A stretch of 64,000 nt of DNA. Origin: Parasitella parasitica NRRL 2501 (lineage: Eukaryota > Fungi > Mucoromycota). The stretch is taken from positions 166,584-230,583 of the forward strand of contig MU619249.1 of assembly GCA_025201805.1 (NCBI GenBank). The letters run 5' to 3'. How positions within the stretch are numbered: the first letter of the stretch is position 1; every line of letters begins with the position of its first letter. The notes beneath the pieces are model-generated. The model did no database searches, was not told the origin of the DNA, and worked only from the letters and a program-made list of their open reading frames with translations. A program made the position numbers and the translations under genes. Positions 18,062 to 63,383 of this stretch are shown here, piece by piece.

Positions 18062-19411
18062 CTAGACCCAAATCATAATCTTGACTTGCACAGAACTCAC
18101 GCAGTGCTTTTCCAAAAGAAAAATACTGAACAGCAAATTCACTAAATTTCTGTCGCAATTCGTCTCTCTCAAAGAGCGATTCTCCTCGATCCAATTTTGC
18201 TTGACTTCTTGGATTTCTTTAGACGCATTTTCCCTGATAGCTGTCAGGCTCCTTTGCAAATCAGACATCCTTTTTTCGCAATCTTCTTCTTGTCTCTGAA
18301 GCCTACGATTTGTCTCCAGAGATGTTTTTAATGCTGCCTTTATCAGGTTCTTTGCTTCCTTCATTGCATCCAGGTCTGATTCCAGCTTGATTTTTTCTTG
18401 TCTCGAGATATTCAACTCTTTTACCGCATTTTGTTGGACCTCATTACGTTCCAAAAGCGCTTCAAGTCGATGCTCTCTTGTTGCCGAATCTTCAAGCCGG
18501 ATTTCGAGATTTTTAATATAGGTTTTGGCGTTGGTCTCTTCTGTAAGTCCAGCACTGACTATGGACATCTCACGGTACACGGCTACGAGACAATAGTACT
18601 TTTCCTGCAGATCGCGATATCGAGTCTTCAGTTCAGTTCAGCTCAATTTCTCCAGATTTTCAGGTGTTGAATGTCGGTCGTCTTTCACGTCAGTGTCATC
18701 AAAAGATCCCAACTTATTGCAAGCAGTACAATTTGATTTGTTTGTCAATTTGAAATGCTGCTGGAATAGCATCAGGTTTTGGTGGGCAACATGTTGTTCC
18801 AAATTCGCGCAATTCTCTTTGGACACGGTAAGTTTTTTCGCTTGTTTCTCGTTGGCTAGCTTTAGTTTTGCTATTGTCGATCCAGCTTCGTTGATTTGAA
18901 GAATAAGTTCCGTGTGCGATAGCTTAACCCTCGCCAAATCCTTGAGAGCCGAATCCAGCTTGCTCTTATTCTGCTTTGACACTTTTACTGAATATTAAAA
19001 ATCACGCCGAACCATTGTGGCTTGATTAGACACAATGTCTAGCTCCTTTTCAAGGGCTCTTACACGATTATTAGCGGCTTCAAGTTCTTCCTTCAACTCT
19101 CTGCATTTTTTGTTGTTGTTGCCATTGTCAGTGGTCAAGTACACACGATAATACGGTTGTTGTCTGTGATGTTGGTGGTCGTATATCTTTTTGCGACAGA
19201 TTGGGCAGTTGCCGCTTATTGCCAAACATTTTAACGCACTGAAGATGGGGGGGGGGTTTGTATCAGAAATAGAAAAAAAAGTTTTTTGATCGTGTTGCGA
19301 TTTTACAGAGCGTCTTTCTTACCAATCTTCATCGAAAATATGACCACAGTTTGTAAACGCTATTAAGGAATCTCCTGCTTCATCTAAGCAAATGCTGCAG
19401 ATAGTTTTCAT
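18062..19411 (-). pseudogene. RING-finger plus long coiled-coil gene (TRAIP-like architecture) interrupted by two in-frame stops
   Basis: Spliced N-terminus MKTICSICLDE...CGHIFDEDC...NCPICRK. ORFs 18995-19225, 18638-18982 and 18062-18580 are in one frame, separated only by TAA (18995-18997) and TGA (18638-18640). 3' end uncertain. Confidence 0.65.
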
Positions 19412-20318
19412 TTGAGTTTCAATAAGATACGCAAAACAAAAAAAGCTTTTATAGCGATAATTCGCAGTTTGTTCACATAACTCGCTGGCAGTTTGTCCAC
19501 ATCGCTCATGCCACACAAGTTTTGAAAAATTGTGAAACCATGTCCAATTTCGGAAGTGCACATATTTTTTTGTATAATTTTCTGTACCTTTTCTTGAAAA
19601 TGGAAAGATTCAACGCTGACTTCTCGAAAATTATTCCTCATTGTTTTGTGTTTATTTTATTATGTCGTTGTTGTCATTATCTACTTAATCAGAATATGTA
19701 CGTCATAACATTAACGAATATTTTGGTCGCGATGTCTAAAAATTCTTTAATTCATCAATTTTACAAGGGTTTGAAATATACCAAATCCTGGTTGCATTTC
19801 TAAGTGGAAATGATTTATGATACTTATAAAAAAAACCATTAATAGACCTCTTAAATGAACAAATTCTGCAAAGAGGCTATAGAAATGGCTGCATTATTTC
19901 AGAAATTGTGTAAATAGCAGTATCCACTCGCTTAGTTCATCGAAATCACAAAGAGTGATTGTGCATTTTGTGATTGTCTTTATGTACAAAAAAAGTCGAT
20001 TCATTAGAGCTACAAATGTAATGAAAATGAAGAGCTGTGCAACAATGTCATCTGATTAGGCTATGACACTCATCATACCTCCAGGTACGATATGCAATCG
20101 TTAAAATCAAAATAGAGTTGTGACATTATTTAAGCAATACTTTGGTATTATCATATGTAAAAAGACAAAAAAAAATATGCGAGCCCAATATGCTGATAGT
20201 CATAAAAAGTTATTTTGCAAGACAATGTACAATGAACTTAATTAAAAGCTTCTTTGTGTTAACACACTTCAAAAAAGGGAACGCTTGGATGCTTCATTAG
20301 TTAATCAGTTATTAATTT

Positions 20319-20331
20319 TATATAAAATGCA
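20319..20331 (+). promoter_or_regulatory. TATA box of secreted-protein paralog A
   Basis: TATATAAAATGCA about 107 nt before the ATG; equivalents precede the other three paralogs. Confidence 0.6.
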
Positions 20332-20358
20332 TCAAAATTTAATTCAAAAGGAAAATAC

Positions 20359-20423
20359 AAATCAAATCAAATCAAATCAAATCAAATCAAATCAAATCAA
20401 ATCAAATCAAATCAAATCAAATC
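20359..20423 (+). repeat. (AAATC)13 microsatellite abutting the start codon
   Basis: Perfect pentamer array followed by AA-ATG at 20426. Confidence 0.95.
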
Positions 20424-20425
20424 AA

Positions 20426-20719
20426 ATGGTACTCAAGTCTTTCTCAATCGCCCTACTTTTAGCTACTGTCTCTGCTGTTTCTGCTATCCAAGCCGAGGGC
20501 TATGTGCAGATTTTTGAATATCCACAATATTTTCAAAAAACTGTTAAAAGATGCTACAAACTTAGGGACACTAGCCTCACATCTGTTCAAGTACAAAATT
20601 TGAGTAATTACAATGTCAGAGTATTTGTAAACAATCGTTGCTCAGGTGAATCCACAGTGATACCTTCTGGTAAATTAGATAAAATTCCCGGTTTACATCA
20701 ATCTTGGAGATTGGAGTAA
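20426..20719 (+). CDS. Small secreted 2-Cys protein, paralog A (97 aa)
   Basis: Signal peptide MVLKSFSIALLLATVSAVSA; C-x28-C; C-terminal QSWRLE; clear paralog of 23593-23901. Confidence 0.85.
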   Translation: MVLKSFSIALLLATVSAVSAIQAEGYVQIFEYPQYFQKTVKRCYKLRDTSLTSVQVQNLSNYNVRVFVNNRCSGESTVIPSGKLDKIPGLHQSWRLE

Positions 20720-21440
20720 TCTTGAAAATATATTATAGATTGAAAAAATTTCGCCTAATAAAACGAATATCAAATATTATGCCTTGATCAGTTTTTTTTT
20801 TTTTTTTTTCTAAATTTTTCATTATCATACTTTTCAACATGGTTAATATAAGACGACATTAGACTCTGGTAACATTGATCATTCTCTTTTTTTTGTTTTT
20901 TTTTTTTTTTTTTTTTTTTTTTCTAAACTTCACTGATATATTACCAATTTTTTGCTACTGTAAATACGATTTATAAGCAAATTTATTGATCCCTATACCT
21001 GTCAGAAATTGAACCTTGTTGTTGTACCAAATATGTGCTCAGAGATGCTGTATAGAATTGGAAAAAAAATCATGAAAGCAACTTAGATTTCATCGTAGCA
21101 AAGAGATGTTCATAAACTACTGAATCCTTATAACTGTTGACTAATAGTGACAAAAAACCGTTGTTGGAAAAGTGGATACAGTCAGAGTAATGCGCTAGTA
21201 AATGAAACCTTACAATGCTACCAACTTTTCTCGTGATTACAATGATCCACCACTACGTCTCGCAAAAAAAAAAGACAATAAAACAATTCAGCTGTGCCAT
21301 ATTCTCCTTGACAAAGCATGGCAAGTGTTTGCTCATTTTCATTGTACACATGATGTTCTTCAATCCTCATTCATTAATTTTCTATAAAAGCACCAAACTT
21401 TATCGGCTCGATTGATAGAAAATATCAACACGTTATTAAA

Positions 21441-21848
21441 ATGTTACTGAAGTCTCTGTCAATTGCATTACTTTTCACTGCGACCTCTTCTGTGTCTGCT
21501 AACGCAATTCCCTCTGTCCCTTCTACTGCCCTTCCTTCTGTCCCTTCTACTTCCCTTCCATCTGTTTCCTCTACTGCCTCGTCTCCTGTCCCCACCGCTA
21601 AACTCGATGGTACTCAAGTCGAAGGCTATCTTATAATCTGGGAGAATCCCCAATATGATAGTAAAACTATTGGAGAATGTTTCCCAATCGACTATAAAGA
21701 CAGGGGTATCAGATGGCAAAACCTTAGTAACCGTAATGCTACGTTTTATAAAGGTAGTCTTTGTGAACTCGATCCCCAGCCAGCATCAAACTTAAATAGC
21801 ACCTACCAGATGCTCTCAGGAGACTATAAATCTTGGAAATTTGTTTAA
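21441..21848 (+). CDS. Small secreted 2-Cys protein, paralog B (135 aa) with P/S/T-rich repeat linker
   Basis: Signal peptide MLLKSLSIALLFTATSSVSA; (PSVPST)-type repeats; EGY..I.E.PQY..KT...C, QNLSN and KSWK shared with paralog A. Confidence 0.82.
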   Translation: MLLKSLSIALLFTATSSVSANAIPSVPSTALPSVPSTSLPSVSSTASSPVPTAKLDGTQVEGYLIIWENPQYDSKTIGECFPIDYKDRGIRWQNLSNRNATFYKGSLCELDPQPASNLNSTYQMLSGDYKSWKFV

Positions 21849-22009
21849 TTCAAATAGATATGTAGTGCTTGATCTATAAAAAATTAAAATATTTTAATAT
21901 ATGTGTGAAAGTAGCAATAAAATTAGTTTTGCCAAAATGGCAAAATTTTTGTTGGCATCGTATCAAAGCGGGCTAGATTGGATTGCACATTACAAGGGTA
22001 AAGTAACAT

Positions 22010-22594
22010 TTATACCTTCACCATTAACCTAAGTTGCAGCTCTTTTGTATGAAGGATATTTGCCAGCTTGGATTGGCCATAGGTATTGGCAGGGCTGTGT
22101 ATTTTCTCTGCATTCAAGTTGTCAAAATCAATACCAGCACTATCTGAAAACTGACTATTTTCGCTTGAACCAACAATGAGTACATGAGAAGAAGCACTTG
22201 AATTTAATGTGTCAGTCAATAAACTTGTGAGATAAAAGTAGCCGGGATGATTGATACTGGATTGTGTCTCAAACCTGTCTTTGCTGTAAGACCTAGGCAC
22301 AAGACATGATACCAGAATTGTTGACAAAAATGCATTAGCAAAAACTTTAATAGAGGAAAGGTCAGACAAGTCGAGTTGCATAAACATCAAGCCGGCTTGT
22401 GGTATAGTCTATTTCATTAATATTCTCGACAGCTCTATTTGTTTTTCAAGTGTTTCGCGAAGGAAGATGGCTTTAGATCCTACAGAAAAAAGTACACGAG
22501 CTGTTTCCTCAGAATTTGATCCAGTACTATTGACAACTTTACCTGTCAGACCTGTTTTGTAAAACTGAGCAGTATTTTTGCCAGCGGTAGGCAT
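22010..22594 (-). pseudogene. Decayed RDH/WWOX-like short-chain dehydrogenase
   Basis: Fragments LTGKVV..TGSNS-EETARVL (TGxxxGxG eroded), LDLSDLSSIK.FA, D.FETQ..INH.GYFYLT.LL and YGQSKLANIL. NNAG is absent and the frames are broken. Confidence 0.75.
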
Positions 22595-23592
22595 TATTCA
22601 ACTGAAGAAAAATAAAAACTTAATTGACCTGTGTACATGGAACTTGGATATAGGATTGTACAAAATATCAATTCCTTCAAATGGTAATCTATGCCCGAAA
22701 GATGATAGTGGCTACAGCATTGAAAGGACTTGTAATAAATAGAATCTGGAGCACAAATGCTAGAAACTACGAAAAGATTGCCTGATAAGACATCCGTAGT
22801 TAGACATTGATGAGATATGTCTAGTCATCCAAAAATAAGTTCGATTGGTACTCAATATAAATGAGCATAATTCAACAATCAATAAATGATATTCTTTGTT
22901 CTATAGAACTACGGTACATCATCTCATTATCTCAGATGTTGCATTTGAGTATCTGTATATAATTTTATGAAGGATTTGGAAGAATGAATGCCCTATAATG
23001 GCATTTCCAAGTTACAAAGTTCTAAGATGCTTATAAAAACCCACGGATAGAAAAAAAAAAAAAGAAGTTTGATTAACGAGCTCTCGAAATGACTGTGTCG
23101 TTACCAAAAACTGTGTAAATATAACATCTACTAGCTTAGTTCATCGAAAACACAATCAATTATCATCAAATGAGCACGATAGGTCAATTAGTGTCTATTT
23201 GTAAAAAGAAAAAAAAGAAAAGTCGTATCAGGTTATTCCTCATGGCTCCAGGGACGATGTCTTGAAACAAAAAGTTGATAAGACCATATGTAGAAAAAAT
23301 ATGCAAATGACTCCCCCCTAAAAAGCTGATTGGTCTTGAAAGGTCATTTCGCTAAACATTGTACAATGAATTACTATGCATACCATGCTGACACAATTTA
23401 TAATCTCTTTGTATTGTTGATCATATTATAATGAATAAAATATTGTATTAATTCATGATTATTTCATTGTTTGGGATAGTATCATTACTCCTCGTATATA
23501 AAAAGCATCAAAATTGAATTCACAAAAGAAAAAAAAAACCAAACCAAACCAAACCAAACCCAATCAAGTCGAATCAAGTCGAATAAAATCAA

Positions 23593-23901
23593 ATGGTACT
23601 CAAGTCGTTCTCAATCGCGCTACTTTTAACTGCTGTCTCTGTTGTCTCTGCTATTCAGGCCCAGGGCGTTGTGCAAATTTTTGATACTGAGCAGAAATAT
23701 CAGAAGACCATTGGGAGATGCTACAAGCTTCACATCGGTGATCTCGATCACGTTGATGTAACAAATAAGAGTAATTACGATGTCAGAGTATTCGTAAACG
23801 ATAACTGTTCAGGCGATTACGTAGTGGTAGAGTACACTAATAAAGACAGGACACCAGTACTGGGTAAACGTCAGTCTTGGAAACTGGTGAAACCCCAATA
23901 A
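23593..23901 (+). CDS. Small secreted 2-Cys protein, paralog C (102 aa)
   Basis: Signal peptide 17/20 identical to paralog A; mature region about 41/77 identical by manual alignment; C-x28-C; QSWK. Confidence 0.85.
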   Translation: MVLKSFSIALLLTAVSVVSAIQAQGVVQIFDTEQKYQKTIGRCYKLHIGDLDHVDVTNKSNYDVRVFVNDNCSGDYVVVEYTNKDRTPVLGKRQSWKLVKPQ

Positions 23902-24779
23902 AACGATTATTAAACCAATTGTTTTGAATTGAGCATACGTTAAATAAAAACTGGAGTAAACTCTTATAAAAATCGAGCAAACGTTGATTTAAACAGTTTT
24001 ATTTTCTTTTCTTTTTTCATTTGACAGTGATAGAATTCACTGACATCTTATCAAGTTGTTGCCATGTACGATGTGTAAACAAGTTTGCTGATCTTTTTCT
24101 TGGAGGCAGAAAAATCGCCCTAAACCTATCAAGAGTTTTATACACAAAATGTGCGTAAGTTTGGAGCCTCGCTTAAATACGTTTGCTATCACTTTTTGAG
24201 ACTTGTATCGTTTTCTTTGACTTAATTTACTGGGATATCTTGGTTTTGATATGAATATGAATTGAAAATGGTGCTTGACTTAGTTACTTCTACGAGTATC
24301 TTTCTTCGATAGGTATCGCATGCCAGGAAGGCACATAAAGTATACTATAACTTGGTCATGTACCATTCATCACAAGTAAAATAATGAACCAGAAGAAATG
24401 GGATTCCTTTTCACGATCACAAATCAAAGTTATCCTCTCTTCCTTTACGGTTAACTTGTTTTTGTAAAAAAAAAAGTTACACTGCGGCAGCAAAGATGAA
24501 TACTAAAAATATTGCATCTCATACCGCAAAGACGTATTTGACAAGGAGTTAGGCTTTTATTAGCTTCAAATTTTAACATAACTCAATGTCTGTCTCATGA
24601 AAAAGGTCTATGTACGTTTGCATTTCAGGTTCATTTCGCCTACATACCTGAGCCATTTGCCATCTTGATATAAAACAATGCCATCTTTCCACAAAGGACG
24701 CCCAATCAAAACTTGTGCCCAAATATAAAAAATGAGAGTGTGCGATCCAGTCTTTTCTTCCTCTTGGCATCTACTCTCA

Positions 24780-25894
24780 ATGACGGTCATTAGCATTGAA
24801 AACATTATTCAAGCCAGTGAGCGTATCCAAGTCCATAGGACTCCTATTCAAACATGCACAGCCATGAATGAACGTGCCTCCGCGCAAGGTGCACCTGTTG
24901 AACTCTTTTTTAAATGTGAATTACTTCAAAAAACAGGATGTACGTAATAATGCTGCATGAGCGTATAAAATATGCTAAACTTTTTTTTTTATAGCATTCA
25001 AATTTAGAGGCGCCAGTAACGCTGTTGCTCTTTTAAGTGATTTAGAAGCTGCAAATGGTGTCGTGACGCATTCTAGTGGTAATCATGCGCAAGCGTTAGC
25101 TCTGGCAGCTAAAAACCGAGGCATTCCAGCTTACATTGTCATGCCAACAACTACACCTGATATAAAGAAAGCAGCTGTGCTCGGTTTTGGGGCAACCGTT
25201 ATCGAATGCCAGCCTATTCAATCTGTGCGCGAGGAAACGGTAATTTGCTTCTATCAGACTCCAAAACTTGAACAACTCAATTCTTTTGTCTGTATAAACT
25301 CAACAGGCAGAGAAAGTCAAATCAGAAACAGGAGCTACATTAATCCATCCTTTCAATAACCGAAATGTCATTGCTGGCCAAGGAACAATCGCACTTGAAT
25401 TACTATCCCAGGTCGAAAACCTCGATGCAATTGTCATACCTGTTGGTGGCGGCGGTATGTTGACCGGTTGTGCAATTGCAGCAAAGGCGTTGAAACCAGG
25501 AATCAAAGTTTTTGCTGCTGAACCTGCTGCTGTGGATGATACATACAGAAGCTTTAAAAACAAGAAACGTGCCACAAACGACATTGCAAAATCTGTGGCG
25601 GATGGCTTATTAACTAATATTGGGGATATCGCTTATTCCCAGATCCAGGGAAACGTAAACGATGTCTTTACAGTGTCTGAAAAAGAAATAATCAATGCGA
25701 TGGGATTGGTATGGAGTCGCATGAAGCTTTGTATTGAGCCTAGTGCTGCAGTTGGTGTTGCTGTCACTCTGTATAACCAGGATTTCAAACACGTTGTCAA
25801 AAAGGAGAGTATAAAAAGAATAGGCGTTGTTCTTTGCGGCGGAAACGTAGATTTGGCCAAAGCTACAGAGCTTTTCCAAAAATACAAAGATTGA
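24780..25894 (+). CDS. Serine racemase / threo-3-hydroxyaspartate ammonia-lyase (PLP fold II), 3 exons
   Basis: HRTP, FKCELLQKTG/AFKFRGA, THSSGNHAQA, AGQGT, PVGGGG, EPSAAV and CGGNVD motifs. Confidence 0.92.
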
Positions 25895-26092
25895 TGACTT
25901 TCAGAAATTGATTGGCATTTAAGTAATTGTAAAAGAATCTTTGTTTAACAAGTTCAGTAGCTGTTTAGTATTAATGATATGTGGCATTAAGAAGGGGGTT
26001 TATTAATAAATTTATAACTTATATAGTATGTAAAAGAAAACAGAAAAAAGAAAATGGGGAAAGGGTATAAGCTGTTTAAGCTATATCATTAT

Positions 26093-27547
26093 TCAAACAC
26101 TAGTCGTTTTCTGAGACGACGATGGCAAATCTGAAGTTGACATGGAACGATTCTTGGAAGAATGACCTTGTACCCGTTCATGTCTTCTCAGGGCATCCAT
26201 GCGAGTAAACTTTTTACCACATTTGTCACAGTAGCAAAAGGGTCTGTTTTCCAAATGAATTGTTTGATGGCGGGAAAGATCATAGGAACGTCTGAAAGTT
26301 TGTCCACACACTTTCCCAGGGCCAGTGACATGTTCACACAGGTGAAGTGTGTTTTGCTGGATATTATGCATGTGGTGTGTACTTGCAACACTGGCTCGAG
26401 TTCTTTTGTTATTGCTGCTGCTGCTGTTGCTGCTGCTGCTGCCACTGCCACTGCCACTACCACTGCCACTGCTGCCACCGCTGTTAATGTTGGCATAAAA
26501 TTGACGTTGATTATGAATGGGCGCAAGTTGAGGATGCAGTGGTGGATGAATTGGAGATGTGATGGACGAAATTGCAGGTAGAGTAGGCGCTGCATGAATT
26601 CTTGGAAATGGAGATGTAGGAGGAGACGAAGGCAGAGGAGCAGTAGAGGGTCTCCTTATTTCAAGCGGATGTAAATTAGTGTTGCTATGATGATCCAAAT
26701 TGATGCTATTTCGTAAGGAAGGTAAAGGGGAGGTAGATGGATCAGGCAACTTCCGAGGATGGTCAGCTGACATGACTCTTTGCTTCTTTCTGTGTGGCTG
26801 CTCATCGTTATGCTCTTCGAGTGAGATAGCTGAATCTTTTCTCGAATCAAAGGCACTGGTCTCGTCATGATTGCTGCTAAATCTTCTAACATGGCTTAGC
26901 TTGAAGCAGTTGTTGGGGCTATTGCCTGACGATAAAATGGCAGGTGTCCATCTGAGAACAGTCGGTTTGATAACCGGTACTGCATCATTTGGCGAAATAA
27001 ACGCATTTGTTTCGGTGGTATTTATTGGTTCAAAGGATGAATGTCGACGTGAATGCAGGTCATCTGTCAAAACACATTTAGCAACTGAAAGATCCTTGTC
27101 TATTTAGAATTTACCTGAATCTTGTACTACTGTCATTAATGTATTCTTGGGTTGCTCATCTTTATGATAGAATATGATATCAAGTCGATGTTGTTTGTCT
27201 GATTTCAAAGTATTTCTTAGGCTAGTATTATCATTGATCAAAATCGAATTAGATGTTGCGATTCGATAATCAGATAAGTCTTGTTTCTGAATACATACTA
27301 TGTCAGCGCTTGTATGTCATACAAGTAATATCTCGCTTACCTCTGTAATGCGTTGTATCTTTCTTATCAAGTCATCAAATGTTGGCTCTTTGTCCTTGAG
27401 GGCGCAAAGATGAAGGGGGTGATATTGTCGAGATTCTTGTATGAAAATTCTATGTGAAGAGTGTATGTGTGTGAGCAATTTTACATCATTGCGTGCATTG
27501 TGGATGCTCAATGAGGCGTACCTTAATCTGTAGATGGTGTTGAACAT
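26093..27547 (-). CDS. C2H2 zinc-finger transcription factor (two fingers) with a possible N-terminal PB1-like domain, 4 exons
   Basis: CEHVTGPGKVCGQTFRRSYDLSRHQTIH and CDKCGKKFTRMDALRRHERVQGH; upstream exons join in frame through GT-AG introns to ATG 27547. Confidence 0.82.
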
Positions 27548-28370
27548 TGTATGGTTCCGTTATTAAAAAAAATCGTTATTATTAGTGTTTAAATGAGTGG
27601 AGATGGCAATTATAAAGAATGGAAAGGGTTTTATTGAAAAAGAAAGAAAAGAGAATTAGATGAAAAGGGAAAACAAAAAAAAAAAAAGGAAAAAGGGCTA
27701 GATGGTTAGATATATGTTGCAAAGAAAGGGGTGGCGAATAATTTGTCTGGAAGGAGCTCCATACTCTACACCTACTGTGATTTAGTCTTATTCTAAAATG
27801 AACTATAAATTTTGCCTTTATGAAGAAGCCTTTCCTTATAATTACATTGTACAACTAGTCTCTGCTCCTATTCTACAGAAGCCTCAGTCGACATAATGGA
27901 CTCTTTTTTGTTTTTCATTCAAAAGCATGTGGCAATGTCTTTTTATATATAATACATGCAGAACGTGAGTTCTATGAGTTTTTAATGTAATTTCCGTGTA
28001 GAGGTTAGAAATACCTCCCTATGATGGATATGGCAACATATTCACTTGCTGCCTTTGACATTTTGCCACAAGCAAAGCTCAAAGAAAGGCGATGGTAGTG
28101 CTAGCGATCATATACTCCTTGATGAAACATAGCTCCAAAAAAGATATAAATTCATTTGATTCACCAACCAAACTCCTATCATAGGAAATAGAATGAATTA
28201 TATATAAAATACACGTTTTATATTCGTCTCCTTATATCTATTTATTTATTTATTTTTTATTCGTATGTTGTCAAAAAAAAAAGAAAAAAAGAAATGAACC
28301 CTGGATAGTGTGTAACATGGTGGGCAAAATCACATTAAAATGCTACAATAGTTATATGTTGGCATGCATG

Positions 28371-28380
28371 NNNNNNNNNN

Positions 28381-28461
<81 letters not shown>
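28371..28461. other. Assembly gap (10 N) followed by a poly(A) run of about 80 nt
   Basis: nnnnnnnnnn then an uninterrupted A tract. Confidence 0.9.
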
Positions 28462-28463
<2 letters not shown>

Positions 28464-29241
28464 GAGCTAATAAAAGCTACTACTAATGTACGTTCTTCGT
28501 TTGTATTTCAAGGAGCTTGCATCGTCTCTACTACTCTCTCCCTTTTCATCTTCTTATTATAGACCTTTATACAAAAAAAGAAAGTTTCTCCTGATAGATT
28601 TCAAGATGGATTGCCTAGTAAATAGGCTAGATTTTCCATGCACTTATTGATCTTGTATTTGACAACGAATATCTATATACAAATTAAAAAAAAAAGTCAT
28701 CCAGGCATAGGAGATGATATAAAAGATGATAAACTTCAAGGGCCTTCATGTACAAACAAGTTTTATATCTAGACATTTATATTTACGCAAAAAATGTAAG
28801 GGATTTCCATAGATGATCTACAATTCATCGCACAGATGCTCATTGTGCAACACTCCAGAAAAACTGTCAAAAACAACCAAATAAAATATTTACACATCCA
28901 ATCCACGAGATGGTACGGCATGTTTTTTTTCCAATAAAGATAACAGCATGCTCAGATGCTTGTGCGATCCTCAAAATACCCAGATCCAGATGTCCAAGAG
29001 ACTTGAAATCTCCCCGCCCCACTTCTATAACGTTTTTTAATACTACTCCTTTCGCTCTTGCAAAAAAAGGGTCTACTAACATGCTCCTACTACTACTCTT
29101 AGTAGTACTAGTACTGCTACTATTACTAGGCTTATTAAAGTGTACAAAAAGATCTAAAAAGACAAGACCCTTTTTTCTGTTTTTAAACAAATCTCTCCCT
29201 CTTTCTCCCCTCCCCCCTTTTTTTTCAAGATTTGATCTTTT

Positions 29242-31127
29242 TTATTGTTCATAGGTAGTAATCACATCGTCAATCTTTAAAATCATCTTGACTAGTTGAG
29301 TGGCCAGCAAATACTGTTGGCGCTTGGAAATCAATGGGTCATATACGTGCTGTTCCTTCATGTCTATAGCGAGCCGAAATTAGTTGAAAATTATAAAAAC
29401 ACTCCTTAATAAAAAATAAAAAAAAATAAAAACTTACCGTTGGAGCCCTTATTGAGACAGTCAATACCGAGTTTAGAGTTACCCGTGGTTGCTTGTTCTG
29501 CCTTTACTTGGGCTAACGTTTCAATAGGAGAAAGACCAGAGTTTTCAGAGAGTGCAAGAGGTGTAGCATCTAAAGCTTCAGCAAAGGCACGCATAGCATA
29601 TTGCTCAATTGTGGAAATTTCATCTGCAACCTTGGCAACGGCAAGAGAGCAGCTGATTTCGGCAGCTCCACCACCGTAAACAACACGGTTGTCACGAACC
29701 AAATTGCGGACAGCACACATGGCGTCATGAAGAGATCGCTTGGCCTCATCAATGATCATTTTGTTACCACCACGGACAAACACAGTAACAGCGCGACTAT
29801 TGGCACACTCTTCGATAACCAACATGCGGTCCTTGGTAGTGCCAAAGCTCAGTTCACGAACAACACCGGCACTGCCCAACTTGTCGGCAGATAAATCTTC
29901 GAAGCGGGGGACAATGCGGCCATTAGTAGCGATAGCGATCAGTTCAATTTCAGGGCCACCAACCCATCTCACAGCAGGCAGCTTGTTTTGTAACAATAAA
30001 TGGTTTGCTTCGTCATCAAAGCCCCACTGGCAAATGACTAGATTGGCGCCAGAGTTCTTAACTTGGTCAATCATCAAGGTAAACTTTTCTTTTTCGTAGG
30101 CCTTCAACTTTTCGTACTCTTCAACAGATGTGATGTCTAGCTTGTGTTTGGTCTTGGGCCTGGGAGGCTCAAATGCGCATGTCAGAATGGCAATCTTGGC
30201 ATCATTAACTTCACGGGGCATTTGGGGATGCGACATGTCTTTGTCAATGACAACGCCCTTTACCAAAATGGTATCTTCTAAGGAGCCACCTACTTTACCG
30301 TCTACCTTGATCAACTCGAAATCAACGTCTTTGCGTTCCAAGTCAGCGACCGATAAAACTGCACTGACAGCAATATCGGCGTATTTTTCGTGGAATTTGG
30401 AGACACTAAACACGCAAATGTTTTAGGCCACGTCCGATACACGCACACAAAGAAGGCTTACATTTTACTGCCAAGACTGGTCATGGCCGTCTTTTTCAAA
30501 TTGGAGACGTTTTCTTTGCTGAATTCAATGGTATCTGAAATTTCGTCTAAATGCTTCACAGCAACGGCACAGGCGCGTTCGAAACCGTCAGCAATACGGA
30601 TAGGGTGGATGCCGCGATCTAAAAGCTGTTCACACTGCTCTAATAAGGCACCAGCAAGAACAACCACGCCTGTAGTGCCATCGCCAATTTCTTGATCTTG
30701 GCTTTGAGACAACTGTACAAGCAGCTTGGCGATTTGGTGCTCGACAGACATTTGGTCCAGGATAGTAGCACCGTCATTAGTGACAGTAATGTCGCCATCA
30801 GGAGAGATCAGGATCTTATCGAGGCCTGTTGTAGATGTTCAACGATTTTAAGGTACCATAAATGGCAGCATGTATAATACTTACCGCGAGGACCGAGAGA
30901 AGTTTTGATGATGTTTGAGACGGTTTTAGCAGCAAGGATATGAGACTATATTATAGTGTTATCAGCACAAGATGTCACGTCCCTTGAACCGAGCCAGGAC
31001 AACTTACACGAATAGCAGCGAGGCCACTCAATCTCGACTTTTGTTGGCCTTCTCGGACGATAATAAAGGGTCTGCCATATTCATCAGTAGCGTAAACAGC
31101 AGAGTTAGGATCGATATTGGCTGCCAT
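29242..31127 (-). CDS. CCT5: T-complex protein 1 subunit epsilon, multi-exon
   Basis: [54 protein letters not shown] and MILKIDDVI. Confidence 0.97.
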
Positions 31128-31461
31128 GTTGTGGTTTTAAGAAAGAACAAATATGACAAGGAGAACAACAGAGAAGGTGAAAGAATTTTTGGAATAAAAC
31201 GCGCAACTCTGGTGATGGGCTAGTCCCGAGTCACTAACATAATGGCAAAAAAGTTTTCTACTGTGCAGAAGAGGCGCTGCCCAATAGCCAACACCAACTC
31301 TGTATGCTTAGAGACAATCCCAGCATGCTTCAGACCTTTGTCAATAAAGCTTTCTGCTCAATAAATAGTATTCCCTTGCTGGTTCATTAGAGCGAATGTA
31401 CCACCTTTTTTTTTTATTATTAAAATTATGTATATTATTATTCTGGGTGGTTGCAGACACC

Positions 31462-31773
31462 TTATTTATGACGAGCGTGGAATTTGTATGACTTGGCGCC
31501 CCTGAAATTTAATGTCTGACTAGTGTCTTGACGGACAGTATCTGAGTGTTGTCCCTTACAGTCGAATCTCTTATAGACCCAAAGATCGTGGTCAACGATT
31601 CTGTTTTCCAAGATATTAGCGCCTAGCTTATTGTTTTCGAGGTTGAAACAGTGTCCATCAAAAACATTAAATTTCTCTTCCCAATTGAGGTAAAAATTGC
31701 CTCTAACTTTTTTGGCAGAAACAGTAGATAGGACAGCAGCGACGAGAAGTGAGATTGTAGACTTGGATACCAT
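31462..31773 (-). CDS. Small secreted 2-Cys protein, divergent paralog D (103 aa)
   Basis: Signal peptide MVSKSTISLLVAAVLSTVSA; C-x29-C followed by xG; C-terminal KSYKF; TATATAAAAGCA and an AAATC-like leader upstream. Confidence 0.75.
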   Translation of the reverse strand: MVSKSTISLLVAAVLSTVSAKKVRGNFYLNWEEKFNVFDGHCFNLENNKLGANILENRIVDHDLWVYKRFDCKGQHSDTVRQDTSQTLNFRGAKSYKFHARHK

Positions 31774-33481
31774 TTTCTTAATATATTTTGTGATTTAGTT
31801 TTGATTGATTTAATTTAATGTAATTTGCTTTGATTTGATTTAATCTAGTTGCTTTTATATATAGAAAACAGGAGAGTTAGAATAGCACATTTGATCACGT
31901 GTAAGATGTGAATGAGCACAATCATGCTGCCTTGATAAAAATGAATGAAGGCACAATTACGCTGCGTTTGCTACTTTCACTATGTTACCACTCACTATCA
32001 ATATCAAGGTGTGCACATGCAAGCTGTCTAGCAGCTACCTCATTGTGCAAATCCCCGTTAAATCAAGTGATTTGTGATGATTCTTGTGGTTGTATCATAT
32101 CGGTTGGTGAATTTTTACTCTTCAACATACGATATGTAAGGACTAGATAATCATCAACTTATGCTGATGGTTCTATTGTACACTCTCCATTTTCAGAAGA
32201 CAACATCGATAATACGGCTGGACCTTCAATTTTTGGTTCAAGTGGATCATTGTTTCCCAACTTTAAACATCAACCGGCGATGCTTGGTATATATACCAAG
32301 GAGCAAACAAAGACAACGCTTTTATTATACGTGATACTCTTAATGGTCTCTACCTTCAGACGCACTGCAGCAGTGCATAAAAAAGAACAAATGGATCCAA
32401 CCAGTCGGTACCTGTTACATTTTTTATTCTAACCTTCTTGATCTGATTTGCAATGCCTGGCTCTATATGTTTGATGCTTGTCTTTTCTATTTGAAAAACA
32501 TGTTGCGATCTATATACAGCTGGTTTTTTTTTAGTGTTTATCAACGTACTAGAATTATTAATGTTGATCTTAGAGATGATTAAACAATAACATCCTTCAA
32601 TAAATGACCGCTCTTTCATAATGAATCATTTTATTCGTAACTTTACTTCTAGCTCCATGAAGTGTACCATTTTTGCTGAATTTTCAATCTCTGGATACAG
32701 ATATGAGGCACTAAATTAAGAGCCGTATAGAATGAATATACAACACCTACGGCTTATAGACAAAAAAAAAAAAGGATATATCTGGATCCAACAAACCAGA
32801 GTAAGGTTGTTGTGTTGATTTGCAAGCTACTTGTAGATAAGCTGTTCGTTCCTAAATACCTGGGATATTTCCTTGAAGATACGTTACACTTTGGGCCAAG
32901 ATTAAAACGATAACTTTGAGGAGAAGTATCATACGCAACTAAATCATACACAAAACTCTTTCAAAATTAAAAGATGATATCGTTCAAGCATCGGATACTG
33001 TGATGTTAGAGGCTTGGAATGATGGCTCAAGTGGCTCGAGATACCAACGTGGTCGTTACAAACTCATGCTTGAATACAAATTCAACATCTTTGCAAACAA
33101 AAGAAACCCTTTAGATCTTGCTGTAAATACATTGTCTGCTATGGCAACTAGTGATATTCACAACAAAAGATTTACAACTGTTTATTACTTGCAATAAGTT
33201 TATGTGGTATAATGAGTCATATTTTCATAATATTTCTTTTTTGGATAGGTCCAATGCAATATTGGCTTGGAATTATTGCCTCAAAGCTTCAATGTATTGA
33301 CTAATTCATATGTGAAAAGAGAGGAAGCAAAACTCAATATATATGGCAATATTGAGGATTCATCTATTGGCAAAATCGTCTCGAGTCTGAAGTTTAATTG
33401 CTGTAACAAGGTCCCCCTCCCCTCGACTCTATTGCTCTGTTGGTTTTTTTGTATTCTCCACATCATTTCATTTGTGCAAGC

Positions 33482-61348: not shown

Positions 61349-62926
61349 CAACCTGCCATTCCTGCGATAACAACTTTAGAAACAGCAGTACCAACCACAG
61401 CAGCTTCATCTGTAACGGCAGCAGCAGCAGCAACGTTAATAGCAGACGACTCGGCCTCTGATGCAAATCTTCGTAAAGTTAAAAGCGCATCGTCATTACC
61501 ATCTTCACCATTATCAGCTACACAGACCCTACGATATTCAGCCTCGATTTCTTCTTTTCATCAACTACCCAAAAAGAAAAACTTTGTGCTGCCACCATTC
61601 GAATCGCAGTTCCTGGAAAATGACGCAACAGATACAAACACGATATCAACGTCTAATGCATCCACAATCACAACCAGCAGTAGTAATTTGATTACCAAAG
61701 CGATGGATGCTATCAATTACATCTTGATACCTGCTGCTGCTCCTACGACACCGTCGATGGAAGAAGAAAGCACCTCTAGCTGGATAGCAAAACGAATGCG
61801 AGCTAAATTCTCCAGTTTTGTTGAGGATTTGAAGCGGTCGACAGCTATTAAAGACCCTGTCCAATCTGCTATGTTGGATAAGCGTATTGTAGTTGTTGGA
61901 GTGCATGGCTGGTTTCCTATGAAGGTATGTGCACACATATATATCTACACACCTTTTTTTGGCTCACTCACTGTACATAGCTCGTGTCTAAAATGATTGG
62001 TGAGCCCACAGGAACATCGATCAAGTTTTGTGAGCAGATGGCATTGGGTGTTAAACTCTATTTTGAATCTGAGCACCAGGTCACATTACCAGATGACGCT
62101 ATTACACTAGTGCCTTTAGAAGGAGAAGGAAAAGTAGAGGATAGAGTGAATCAACTGTACACAAAGCTGATTGATAACTCAAAATGGCTGGAAGCAGTGT
62201 CATCGGCAGACGTAGTGCTATGGGCGACACACTCACAGGGAACCCCAGTTTCCATCATGCTTCTGCAAAGATTGCTAGAGCGAGGACACATTCATGTTAT
62301 TCGACAATCCATCTGCGTGCTTGCTATGGCGGGAATCTCAAATGGTCCCTTTCCTGCTTTAAAAGGCAGCCTTATTGTCAAGGTAAAATGCAGAGCAGAA
62401 AGTTTTCAGTACTTAATCACTCACGCTGTCTTTCATTTTTCCAGTATTTTGAAGCAGATGCCGCACGTGAACTGTTTGAATTCATGGATTCTAACAGCCC
62501 TATATCAGTAAATTTCCGCCAATCACTTGCCTATGTACTAAAATGCGGAACAAAGATGGTGCTCACAGGCTCTATGCAAGATCAAGTGGTTCCATTATAT
62601 TCTGCAATCATGTCATCGGTGAACCACTCTAGTATCTTGCGTTCTGTCTACATTGACGGCCATATTTATTCTCAGGATGACTTTTTGATTAACCTAATTG
62701 TATTCGCTCTGAAGTTGCGCAACACGGGACTTTCTGACCATGACTTGCTGACGCACTTGAGTGAAGTATTAGCAGGTAGTCTTTATGCATTGGAGGGTGG
62801 TCACTCTACCATCTACGAGGAGTTGGAGGTTTACATGACAGCCATACGTTATACTTTTGAAACTGCACCTTTTGGTAAATATACTCGACGCACGTGCTCG
62901 CTATCACCACCACCACCACCACCACC

Positions 62927-63020
<94 letters not shown>

Positions 63021-63031
63021 CNNNNNNNNNN

Positions 63032-63127
<96 letters not shown>

Positions 63128-63383
63128 GCAGCAGCAGCAGCCAAAAAGACTGGCCGTAGAAGACGCAATTCTGCACCCATTCCAAGCTAAACAACAGCAA
63201 AATCCATTTTATTTACCTTGGGCATTACATGCCCTATGTACAGATCCATTGATCCTCGCAGATGACTTGCTGAAAGCGGACCTAACTCGCTTGCTGATTT
63301 TGTTTGAACAATGGAGTCCCACCAGTGCCAGATTAAGAGAGCTGAAATTTAGATTAGATCCCCTTAGAACTATCAAATTGTGA
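60041..63383 (+). CDS. YML020W-like alpha/beta-hydrolase-fold protein with a long disordered polyQ N-terminus, 3 exons
   Basis: IVVVGVHGWFP, GEPTGTS.KF, LEGEGKV..RV, ATHSQGTPV (nucleophile elbow), DQVVPLYSA, GGHSTIY and NPFYLPW. Confidence 0.82.
62928..63140 (+). repeat. (CAA)n/(CAG)n polyglutamine tract spanning a 10-N gap
   Basis: Pure CAA run on both sides of N at 63022-63031. Confidence 0.9.

What the first reader, a model, noticed from the sequence alone, without database searches (positions are those of the whole stretch)
20426..31773. Family of four small secreted 2-Cys proteins: candidate beta-gamma-crystallin/killer-toxin-like effector system
Seen: four intronless genes (20426-20719, 21441-21848, 23593-23901 on +; 31462-31773 on -) with signal peptides ending VSA and a mature domain of about 80 aa with pattern G-[aromatic/hydrophobic strand]...C-[YF]-x-[LI]...N...[VF]-[FY]-x4-C...S-[WY]-[KR] (Cys spacing 27-29). 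A and C keep 17/20 signal residues but only about 53% mature identity; B and D are far more diverged. Known: single-domain beta-gamma-crystallin-like folds occur in secreted antimicrobials (Williopsis killer toxin, Streptomyces SKLP, plant MiAMP1), and a conserved signal with a variable mature region is typical of toxin families. Inference: an undescribed, diversifying Mucorales secreted effector or antimicrobial family. Fold and function are not demonstrated.
Basis: partly seen in the sequence, partly recalled or inferred. Interest (0 to 1): 0.8.

Follow-up and report, generated by a model that had tools for sequence, protein, structure and literature searches.

The report
Crystallin-fold secreted proteins of mould parasite
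Four neighbouring genes, most likely from the mould-parasitising mould Parasitella, encode small, fast-changing proteins that are likely secreted and are predicted to fold like eye-lens crystallins and some known antifungal proteins; they likely act by sticking to the cell walls of other fungi or microbes, but that is untested.

Summary
The four genes are real and lie at the stated coordinates. B and C are covered by unspliced contigs of an RNA run, which also holds two further paralogue transcripts. The window most likely comes from Parasitella, a fusion mycoparasite of other Mucorales. The only full-domain relatives among 1.84 billion representatives are three Parasitella proteins, one of them syntenic. 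An AlphaFold model of A (pLDDT 81-93 over residues 41-97) and the ESM Atlas model of B both point to a single beta-gamma-crystallin-like domain. The scores are modest (best VIA Z 6.8-7.0, no Foldseek E<=0.001), and lens crystallins score as high as or higher than the antimicrobials WmKT, MiAMP1, AFP1 and SKLP. The family lacks the Ca2+ motif and the 6-Cys MiAMP1 pattern, has no Pfam hit, and its pI spans 4.6-9.4. Mature domains change fast (orthologues about 50% identical; A/C omega 0.73, CI 0.41-1.31), but positive selection is not shown. Crystallin-fold secreted proteins are already a known, widespread class in Ascomycota, so this is a new member of a known kind in a new lineage. Likeliest role, inferred: binding wall polysaccharide of host or competitor fungi.

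The parts
20426..20719 (+). Gene A: 20-aa leader (20426-20485) plus 77-aa crystallin-like domain; Cys43/Cys72; pI 9.3; one N-glycosylation sequon
   Evidence: AlphaFold model, fold searches; not covered by run X1; exact protein not in the collection
20321..20425 (+). TATA-GCA box of A followed by an (AAATC)13 repeat in the likely 5' UTR
   Evidence: box-to-domain region 74.6% identical to that of C over 346 columns
21441..21848 (+). Gene B: leader (21441-21500), Ser/Thr/Pro-rich spacer (21501-21608), 79-aa acidic domain (pI 5.2) with three sequons kept in its Parasitella orthologue P0022
   Evidence: unspliced RNA contig 21411-22123 with 0 differences; ESM Atlas model TM 0.62-0.79 to small beta proteins including MiAMP1 and I36 clusters
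21383..21392 (+). TATA-GCA box of B
23593..23901 (+). Gene C: leader (23593-23652) plus 82-aa domain, pI 8.6; closest paralogue of A
   Evidence: unspliced RNA contig 23483-23850 with 0 differences; annotated protein in NCBI
23497..23592 (+). TATA-GCA box of C and degenerate AAACC/AAATC repeat
31462..31773 (-). Gene D: leader (31773-31714) plus 83-aa basic domain (pI 9.4), no sequon; the divergent member; lies between CCT5 and rpl16; orthologue P0020
   Evidence: not covered by run X1
31850..31861 (-). TATA-GCA box of D, followed by AAATC-like units

Best explanation
These are four paralogous genes, likely of the fusion mycoparasite Parasitella, whose products are likely secreted, are predicted to be single Ca2+-independent beta-gamma-crystallin-like domains likely closed by one disulfide, and likely work outside the cell by binding wall polysaccharide or wall proteins of host or competitor fungi and microbes and so disturbing or preparing that wall. 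Shown: genes, paralogy, RNA cover of B and C, relatives, synteny of D, fast change of the mature part. Predicted: secretion, fold, disulfide. Inferred by analogy only: the target and the effect. The model is AFP1 (binds chitin, chitosan and fungal walls, alters morphogenesis) and Sp-AMP3 (binds beta-1,3-glucan). The conserved core (strand hydrophobics, two Cys, terminal S-W/Y-K) would hold the fold while the surfaces diverge, giving basic unglycosylated or lightly glycosylated members (A, C, D) and an acidic, stalked, heavily glycosylated member (B) with different ligands. The family grows by local duplication and dispersal: at least six members if run X1 is the same organism.
For: Fold: the AlphaFold model of A from a 7-sequence alignment is all-beta, mean pLDDT 77, blocks 81-93 over residues 41-97, five models 73.5-77.1. 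Foldseek ranks 1-9 are all crystallin-fold entries at prob 0.91-1.00. Of the 25 VIA rows at Z>=5.0, 15 name a crystallin in the title, 5 more are known members (Protein S twice, AIM1g1, WmKT, MiAMP1) and 3 more are members by recall; best Z 6.8, rmsd 2.2-3.0 A over 66-73 residues for the compact rows. The independent ESM Atlas model of B matches MiAMP1 (TM 0.62) and Inhibitor_I36 (TM 0.67) clusters and unnamed actinobacterial secreted proteins (TM 0.77-0.79). A modified Greek-key signature [FY]xxxxC is in 7 of 7 members, with the following Gly in 4 of 7 (canonical form from PMC3551895). Host: the rpl16 next to D groups with Parasitella at 98/98 among 14 rows; the 3 non-self full-domain homologues are all named Parasitella parasitica; an X1 contig that shares C's leader continues with 10 of 10 residues of P0027. 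Parasitella is a facultative fusion parasite of many zygomycetes (PMC4241652). Fast evolution: D and B orthologues are 41/81 and 39/78 identical in the domain against 94-96% for rpl16; A/C dN about 0.5, omega 0.73. Analogy: characterised secreted, single-domain, Ca2+-motif-free crystallin proteins bind wall glycans and inhibit fungi; Mucorales hyphal walls are rich in chitin/chitosan.
Against: No functional data at all. Fold scores are modest: 0 Foldseek matches at E<=0.001, 0 VIA matches at Z>=8, and the tool warns that Z under 8 can mean only a common arrangement; the best rows not known as crystallins reach Z 5.0-5.3. The antimicrobials score lower than lens crystallins (WmKT 5.9, MiAMP1 5.4, SKLP 4.6, AFP1 4.2 against 6.8), so the structure does not select them. 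The same fold serves as spore-coat protein, adhesin, protease inhibitor and perithecial protein. 4 of 7 members are acidic (pI 4.6-6.2), unlike MiAMP1 (pI 10). Omega for A/C does not differ from 1 and its interval spans 0.41-1.31, which fits relaxed constraint as well as an arms race, and two neighbouring genes are decayed. The C contig begins 14 bases upstream of the TATA box and the B contig runs into the convergent pseudogene, so their RNA cover need not be their own mRNA. D was not modelled by itself, and the disulfide was not measured on the model.
Confidence: 0.4

Rival explanations
1. Structural or adhesive proteins of the fungus's own wall, spores or sexual and parasitic contact cells, like Protein S, spherulin 3a, Neurospora abundant perithecial protein or DdCAD-1; they would bind self wall glycan or each other.
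For: These proteins score as well as or better than the antimicrobials in the fold search (Protein S 6.4, Neurospora APP 6.2). B has a mucin-like spacer and three sequons conserved in its orthologue, as surface glycoproteins do. B and C have RNA cover in the one run found.
Against: Protein S and spherulin carry the Ca2+ motif (PMC3551895 passage), which 0 of 7 members have. A structural wall protein should be detectable in the many Mucor proteomes of the collection (one search lists eight Mucor species for rpl16), yet none was hit. Orthologues at 50% identity are fast for a structural role.
Confidence: 0.25
2. Secreted inhibitors of host or competitor enzymes (SMPI/I36-like protease inhibitors, or inhibitors of wall hydrolases), or protein-protein adaptors like UmbB.
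For: The ESM Atlas model of B matches an Inhibitor_I36 cluster at TM 0.67. UmbB1, a small beta-sandwich adaptor (PMC11062931), scores Z 5.3-6.0. Variable surfaces on a fixed core suit enzyme-inhibitor races.
Against: The Atlas marks the I36 row as under its bar for naming a family; there is no Pfam I36 hit; no partner gene lies in the window.
Confidence: 0.15
3. Largely dispensable duplicates drifting in a labile stretch of genome; only one or two copies matter.
For: A/C omega is not distinguishable from 1. A decayed short-chain dehydrogenase lies between B and C, and a RING/coiled-coil frame with two in-frame stops lies left of A.
Against: All four frames, leaders, Cys pairs and TATA boxes are intact. 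B and D have intact orthologues in another Parasitella record, with core residues and sequons kept at about 50% identity. 11 mature columns are hydrophobic or Cys in 7 of 7 members.
Confidence: 0.1

Closest known systems
Crystallin-fold orphan candidate effectors of Pezizomycotina, including Cladosporium fulvum Ecp4, Ecp7, CfCE44 and CfCE72-CTR (10.1101/127746; PMC10462633; PMC13525658)
   Same: Small, signal peptide, no Pfam domain, predicted double Greek key, no Ca2+ motif, paralogous, function mostly untested.
   Different: Ecp4/Ecp7 have six Cys in the MiAMP1 spacing; these have two (one relative four). No sequence link was found. The host is a Mucoromycota mycoparasite; that survey covered Pezizomycotina only.
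Streptomyces tendae AFP1 (1gh5) and SKLP (1f53)
   Same: Secreted single crystallin-like domain (VIA Z 4.2 and 4.6); AFP1 binds chitin, chitosan and fungal walls (PMC9558229 passage).
   Different: 11-12% identity, bacterial, and low in the ranking; binding is not tested here.
Williopsis mrakii killer toxin WmKT (1wkt)
   Same: Fungal, secreted, about 88 aa, Foldseek rank 6 (prob 0.98), VIA Z 5.9, rmsd 2.7 A over 68 residues.
   Different: 13% identity, no profile match; killing activity is unknown here.
Plant MiAMP1/Sp-AMP3 (PF09117)
   Same: VIA Z 5.4 over 65 of 76 residues, Atlas TM 0.62. The one Cys pair (mature 23/52 in A) may correspond to MiAMP1 Cys23-Cys49 (inferred from position).
   Different: No PF09117 hit; 2 Cys rather than 6; not uniformly basic.
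Canonical Ca2+-binding and lens beta-gamma-crystallins (Protein S, spherulin 3a, geodin, beta/gamma-crystallins)
   Same: Highest structural scores, Z 6.0-6.8.
   Different: No N/D-N/D-x-x-S/T-S motif; the first Greek key lacks the signature Gly; Cys replaces the second aromatic in the second key; secreted.

Membership tests
beta-gamma-crystallin superfamily (fold level) | All-beta sandwich of two Greek-key motifs covering the domain | tested here: met
   Model of A, 7 strands of 3 or more residues and no helix; crystallin-fold entries fill Foldseek ranks 1-9 and 23 of 25 VIA rows at Z>=5.0, 3 of them by recall; ESM model of B agrees. Caveat: Z<8, E>0.001, predicted models, C and D not modelled.
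canonical beta-gamma-crystallin | YxxxxY/FxG signature in both Greek keys (PMC3551895) | tested here: not met
   second key [FY]xxxxC in 7 of 7, followed by xG in 4 of 7, with Cys for the aromatic; first key [FW]xxxxY in 2 of 7, never with Gly.
Ca2+-binding beta-gamma-crystallins | N/D-N/D-x-x-S/T-S motif | tested here: not met
   0 of 7 members.
MiAMP1 / Ecp4-Ecp7 group | Six Cys in three disulfides; PF09117 match | tested here: not met
   2 Cys in 6 of 7 members and 4 in one; no PF09117 hit.
WmKT / SKLP / AFP1 / SMPI sequence families | Detectable sequence or profile match | tested here: not met
   No PDB sequence hit at E<=10 with A1 or P0027; 4 unrelated hits at E 0.08-1.5 with A7; no Pfam or NCBIfam hit above cut-off.
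crystallin-fold antimicrobials (functional class) | Binding to chitin, chitosan or glucan, and growth inhibition | not testable with these tools
   Needs recombinant protein.
fungal orphan candidate effectors (criteria of PMC10462633) | Secretion signal, mature size under 300 aa, no Pfam domain, under 50% disorder | tested here: met
   Leader judged by hydropathy and an AxA-type cleavage site only; sizes 77-115 aa; no Pfam hit; ordered model; B's spacer is 36 of 115 mature residues.
toxin-type gene families (conserved leader, hypervariable mature part) | Positive selection on the mature part; homogenised leader even at silent sites | tested here: inconclusive
   A/C only: mature omega 0.73, CI 0.41-1.31, p=0.35 against 1. 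Silent differences 3/16 in the leader and 15/40 in the mature part, Fisher p=0.22; four-fold sites 3/12 and 3/17.

The most novel reading that the evidence does not exclude
A Parasitella-specific, diversifying set of crystallin-fold effectors that lets this fusion parasite recognise, loosen or disarm the chitosan- and polyuronide-rich walls of its mucoralean hosts. These would be the first protein determinants of host range and wall fusion in a parasite that hands nuclei and genes to its host.
Probability: 0.15. Interest if true: 0.72.

Novelty: new member of a known kind. Interest (0 to 1): 0.37.

Why it matters
If the best reading holds, the crystallin/killer-toxin scaffold, known from plants, streptomycetes, yeasts and ascomycete effectors, is also used for conflict between organisms in an early-diverging fungal lineage. 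The proteins would be small candidate binders of Mucorales walls and possible antifungal leads. If the bold reading holds, it supplies testable effector genes for Parasitella's fusion parasitism, a laboratory model of gene transfer between fungi; none of my searches turned up a described protein effector for it. As it stands it is a well-defined, unannotated family with a predicted fold and no shown function.

Tried and rejected
No whole genome is held for the window, so copy number and Mucor synteny could not be counted. Single-sequence AlphaFold of A gave pLDDT 49.8 and was not used. Word-index searches: A alone found nothing; alignments A1 and A2 found only self and P0020 among 708 and 1059 candidates; longer or shorter forms were not searched there. 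In the profile search 5 of 11 hits (P0021, P0023-P0026) were dropped: they are 599-3273-aa proteins, mostly HYR/PKD repeat proteins, matched by 18-47-position stretches. Metagenome scans found nothing (255 and 394 pattern matches, none confirmed). The viral fold library gave no match at E<=0.001. ESM Atlas feature hits all score under 0.9 and are leads only: top rows are unnamed clusters, commonest Mucoromycota for A (0.83) and Zoopagomycota for B (0.87); they warn that the class may be wider than Parasitella. Run search: one run listed, none on record as RNA; its 12 spliced joints in the region show that it is RNA. The lack of cover over A and D is no evidence of silence. My first Nei-Gojobori estimate (mature omega 0.47; silent divergence 0.17 in the leader and 0.51 in the mature part) suggested gene conversion of the leader; stricter counts and a codon model did not hold that up, so the claim is dropped. 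The TATA-GCA box is not enriched as a plain 10-mer (14 found, 12 expected), although 4 of the 6 window matches to a fitted pattern are these genes. Horizontal transfer from Actinobacteria was considered because of the Atlas structure rows, but no bacterial single-domain sequence relative appeared and GC is 37-43% against 41-46% for neighbours; not supported. No complex prediction was run, as no partner is proposed. Earlier-finding look-ups returned nothing.
Full report
Observation. The four ORFs exist as described. A (20426-20719 +), B (21441-21848 +) and C (23593-23901 +) lie within 3.5 kb; D (31462-31773 -) lies 7.6 kb further on, between CCT5 and mitochondrial rpl16. Each has a 20-aa hydrophobic leader ending VSA and two Cys with 27-29 residues between. 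A, B and C are clearly homologous in the mature part (0/1000 shuffles reach the score); D is marginal in pairwise tests (7/1000 against C, 63/1000 against A, 245/1000 against B) and is tied in by leader, promoter box, motif pattern and HHalign (prob 76%). A hydropathy scan of 312 small ORFs in the window returned 8, among them all four genes. All four have a TATA box followed by GCA 58-105 bases before the ATG, and A, C and D have AAATC-type repeats between box and ATG.

Expression. One public run holds the region. Its contigs show 12 spliced joints in neighbouring genes and no depth over several intergenic stretches, so it behaves as RNA; 18 of 21 contigs laid are at least 99% alike. B is covered end to end by one unspliced contig and C over most of its length, both with 0 differences. 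A and D are not covered, which shows nothing. Two caveats: the C contig starts 14 bases upstream of the TATA box, and the B contig runs into a convergent pseudogene. Two further contigs (877 and 395 bases) match only C's leader, with 6 differences each, and then run on unlike the window. One continues with residues 21-30 of P0027 (10 of 10), the other with a different peptide that has Cys at the same position. If the run is one organism, the genome holds at least six members.

Relatives and host. Word-index searches found one non-self relative, P0020. A profile of five mature domains against 1.84 billion representatives gave 11 hits at E<=0.001: three self, P0020 (which was in the query), two new full-domain relatives (P0022, E 3e-8; P0027, E 9e-4) and five long proteins, mostly repeat proteins, matched by short stretches, which I dropped. 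P0020, P0022 and P0027 are all named Parasitella parasitica. P0020 is CEP14963.1, the accession next to that genome's rpl16, CEP14962.1, on a contig of the same length, so D's position is conserved. The window's rpl16 groups with the Parasitella one at 98/98 in a 14-row single-gene tree that is otherwise Mucor or unnamed. The window is therefore most likely Parasitella (inference), a facultative fusion parasite of many zygomycetes that passes nuclei and genes to its hosts (PMC4241652, whole text). No Mucor protein was hit although eight Mucor species appear in the rpl16 cluster. This is absence at a strict threshold only: D itself shares just 9-14 of about 78 mature residues with A, B and C, and the Atlas's nearest feature clusters are unnamed Mucoromycota and Zoopagomycota proteins (0.83 and 0.87, below its bar).

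Fold. Single-sequence AlphaFold failed. With the 7-sequence alignment A5, A gave mean pLDDT 77, 70 over residues 21-40 and 81-93 over 41-97, all beta. Foldseek found nothing at E<=0.001, but ranks 1-9 are crystallin-fold entries, WmKT sixth. VIA against 48,161 chains gave 24 at Z>=5 and none at Z>=8. Of the 25 rows shown at Z>=5.0, 15 name a crystallin, 5 are known members and 3 (GH29 fucosidase C-terminal domain, IPSE, X409) are members by my recall; the other two are UmbB1 and PirA (the second look agrees, best Z 7.0). The Atlas's own model of B independently matches MiAMP1 and I36 clusters and unnamed actinobacterial secreted proteins at TM 0.62-0.79. The sequence keeps a modified Greek-key hairpin signature in the second motif and a terminal Ser (canonical signature from PMC3551895, passages) but lacks the Ca2+ motif in 7 of 7 members. 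I put the fold at about 0.85. The structure does not rank antimicrobials above other members: lens crystallins 6.8, Protein S 6.4, Neurospora APP 6.2, WmKT 5.9, MiAMP1 5.4, SKLP 4.6, AFP1 4.2.

Evolution. Between the window and the other Parasitella record, D and B orthologues keep 41/81 and 39/78 domain residues while rpl16 keeps 94-96%. For A against C a codon model gives dN 0.50, dS 0.68, omega 0.73 (CI 0.41-1.31) in the mature part and omega 0.39 (CI 0.07-1.92) in the leader. That is fast, but it cannot separate positive selection from loose constraint. An apparent lack of silent change in the leader was not significant on stricter counting (p=0.22). A pattern of conserved leader and variable mature part is described for parasite secreted families (PMC2955719, abstract), but a conserved signal peptide among young paralogues needs no special mechanism. 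Members differ in chemistry: pI 8.6-9.4 for A, C and D, and 4.6-6.2 for B and the three relatives; B and P0022 carry a Ser/Thr-rich spacer and three shared sequons.

Mechanism. Shown: genes, family, RNA cover of two, fast divergence. Predicted: secretion, fold, one disulfide. Inferred: function. [quoted passage not shown] Mucorales hyphal walls are rich in chitin/chitosan and polyuronides (PMC6433966, passages). With a mycoparasitic host and lineage-limited, fast-changing paralogues, binding to foreign walls is the likeliest role (0.4). Rivals are own-wall or adhesion protein (0.25), enzyme inhibitor or adaptor (0.15; UmbB1 is an adaptor, PMC11062931, passages) and near-neutral duplicates (0.1).

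Comparison and novelty. A crystallin family is among eighteen orphan-effector families found in over 80% of 20 Pezizomycotina species (PMC10462633, passages and section 6). Ecp4, Ecp7, CfCE44 and CfCE72 are predicted to have the fold without the Ca2+ motif, and such effectors are called widespread across fungi (PMC13525658, passages). The class is known. This family fails membership of every named sequence family tested. I found no description of it in 10 full-text searches, and the main texts of a zygomycete secretome survey (PMC9391592, passages) and a mycoparasite effector study (PMC13188720, abstract and passages) contain no 'crystallin'. I did not open their supplements, where these proteins may sit as unnamed orthogroups, and the library lacks most subscription papers. 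Verdict: new member of a known kind, interest 0.37; the parasite-effector reading has probability about 0.15 and would merit about 0.72.

Noticed in passing
window 22010-22594 (-): Decayed short-chain dehydrogenase between B and C: matches PDB 3rd5 at E 2e-11 and protochlorophyllide reductases weakly, has an in-frame stop and only a faint Pfam adh_short hit (E 0.13); partly covered by an unspliced X1 contig.
   Followed up: partly
window 18062-19410 (-): RING-finger plus coiled-coil frame left of A, spliced at 19238/19323 and covered by X1 with 0 differences, yet with two in-frame stops in an otherwise long open frame: a transcribed pseudogene, or stop readthrough; only the last 168 aa are annotated. 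The RING label is by eye.
   Followed up: partly
window 23586-23652: Two X1 contigs share only C's leader at about 90% and continue as other genes; one is P0027, the other an apparently unlisted member with Cys at mature position 3, possibly a second four-Cys form.
   Followed up: partly
window 20426-20719: Gene A is intact but, unlike B, C and D, its exact protein is not in the 15-billion collection in either start form, so it may have been missed by annotation.
   Followed up: partly
P0020 residues about 75-100: The Parasitella orthologue of D carries a 25-residue insertion after the second Cys.
   Followed up: no
window 19876-19951 and 23080-23155; 20896-20991 and 23998-24093: Two further short repeats (77% and 69%) upstream and downstream of A and C suggest that the A/C duplication unit was larger than the gene.
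   Followed up: no
PDB 8w20/8w22 chain B: The Streptomyces umbrella-toxin adaptor UmbB1 aligns with the crystallin-like model at Z 5.3-6.0, although its paper reports no structural relatedness to characterised proteins and never uses the word crystallin.
   Followed up: no
window 31997-33300: Transcribed stretch between D and rpl16 (X1 contigs) with no long ORF; probably a multi-exon gene, not identified.
   Followed up: no
window 62700-63180, 28371-28380, 63022-63031: Very long CAG/CAA (poly-Gln) tract and two 10-base N gaps in the assembly.
   Followed up: no
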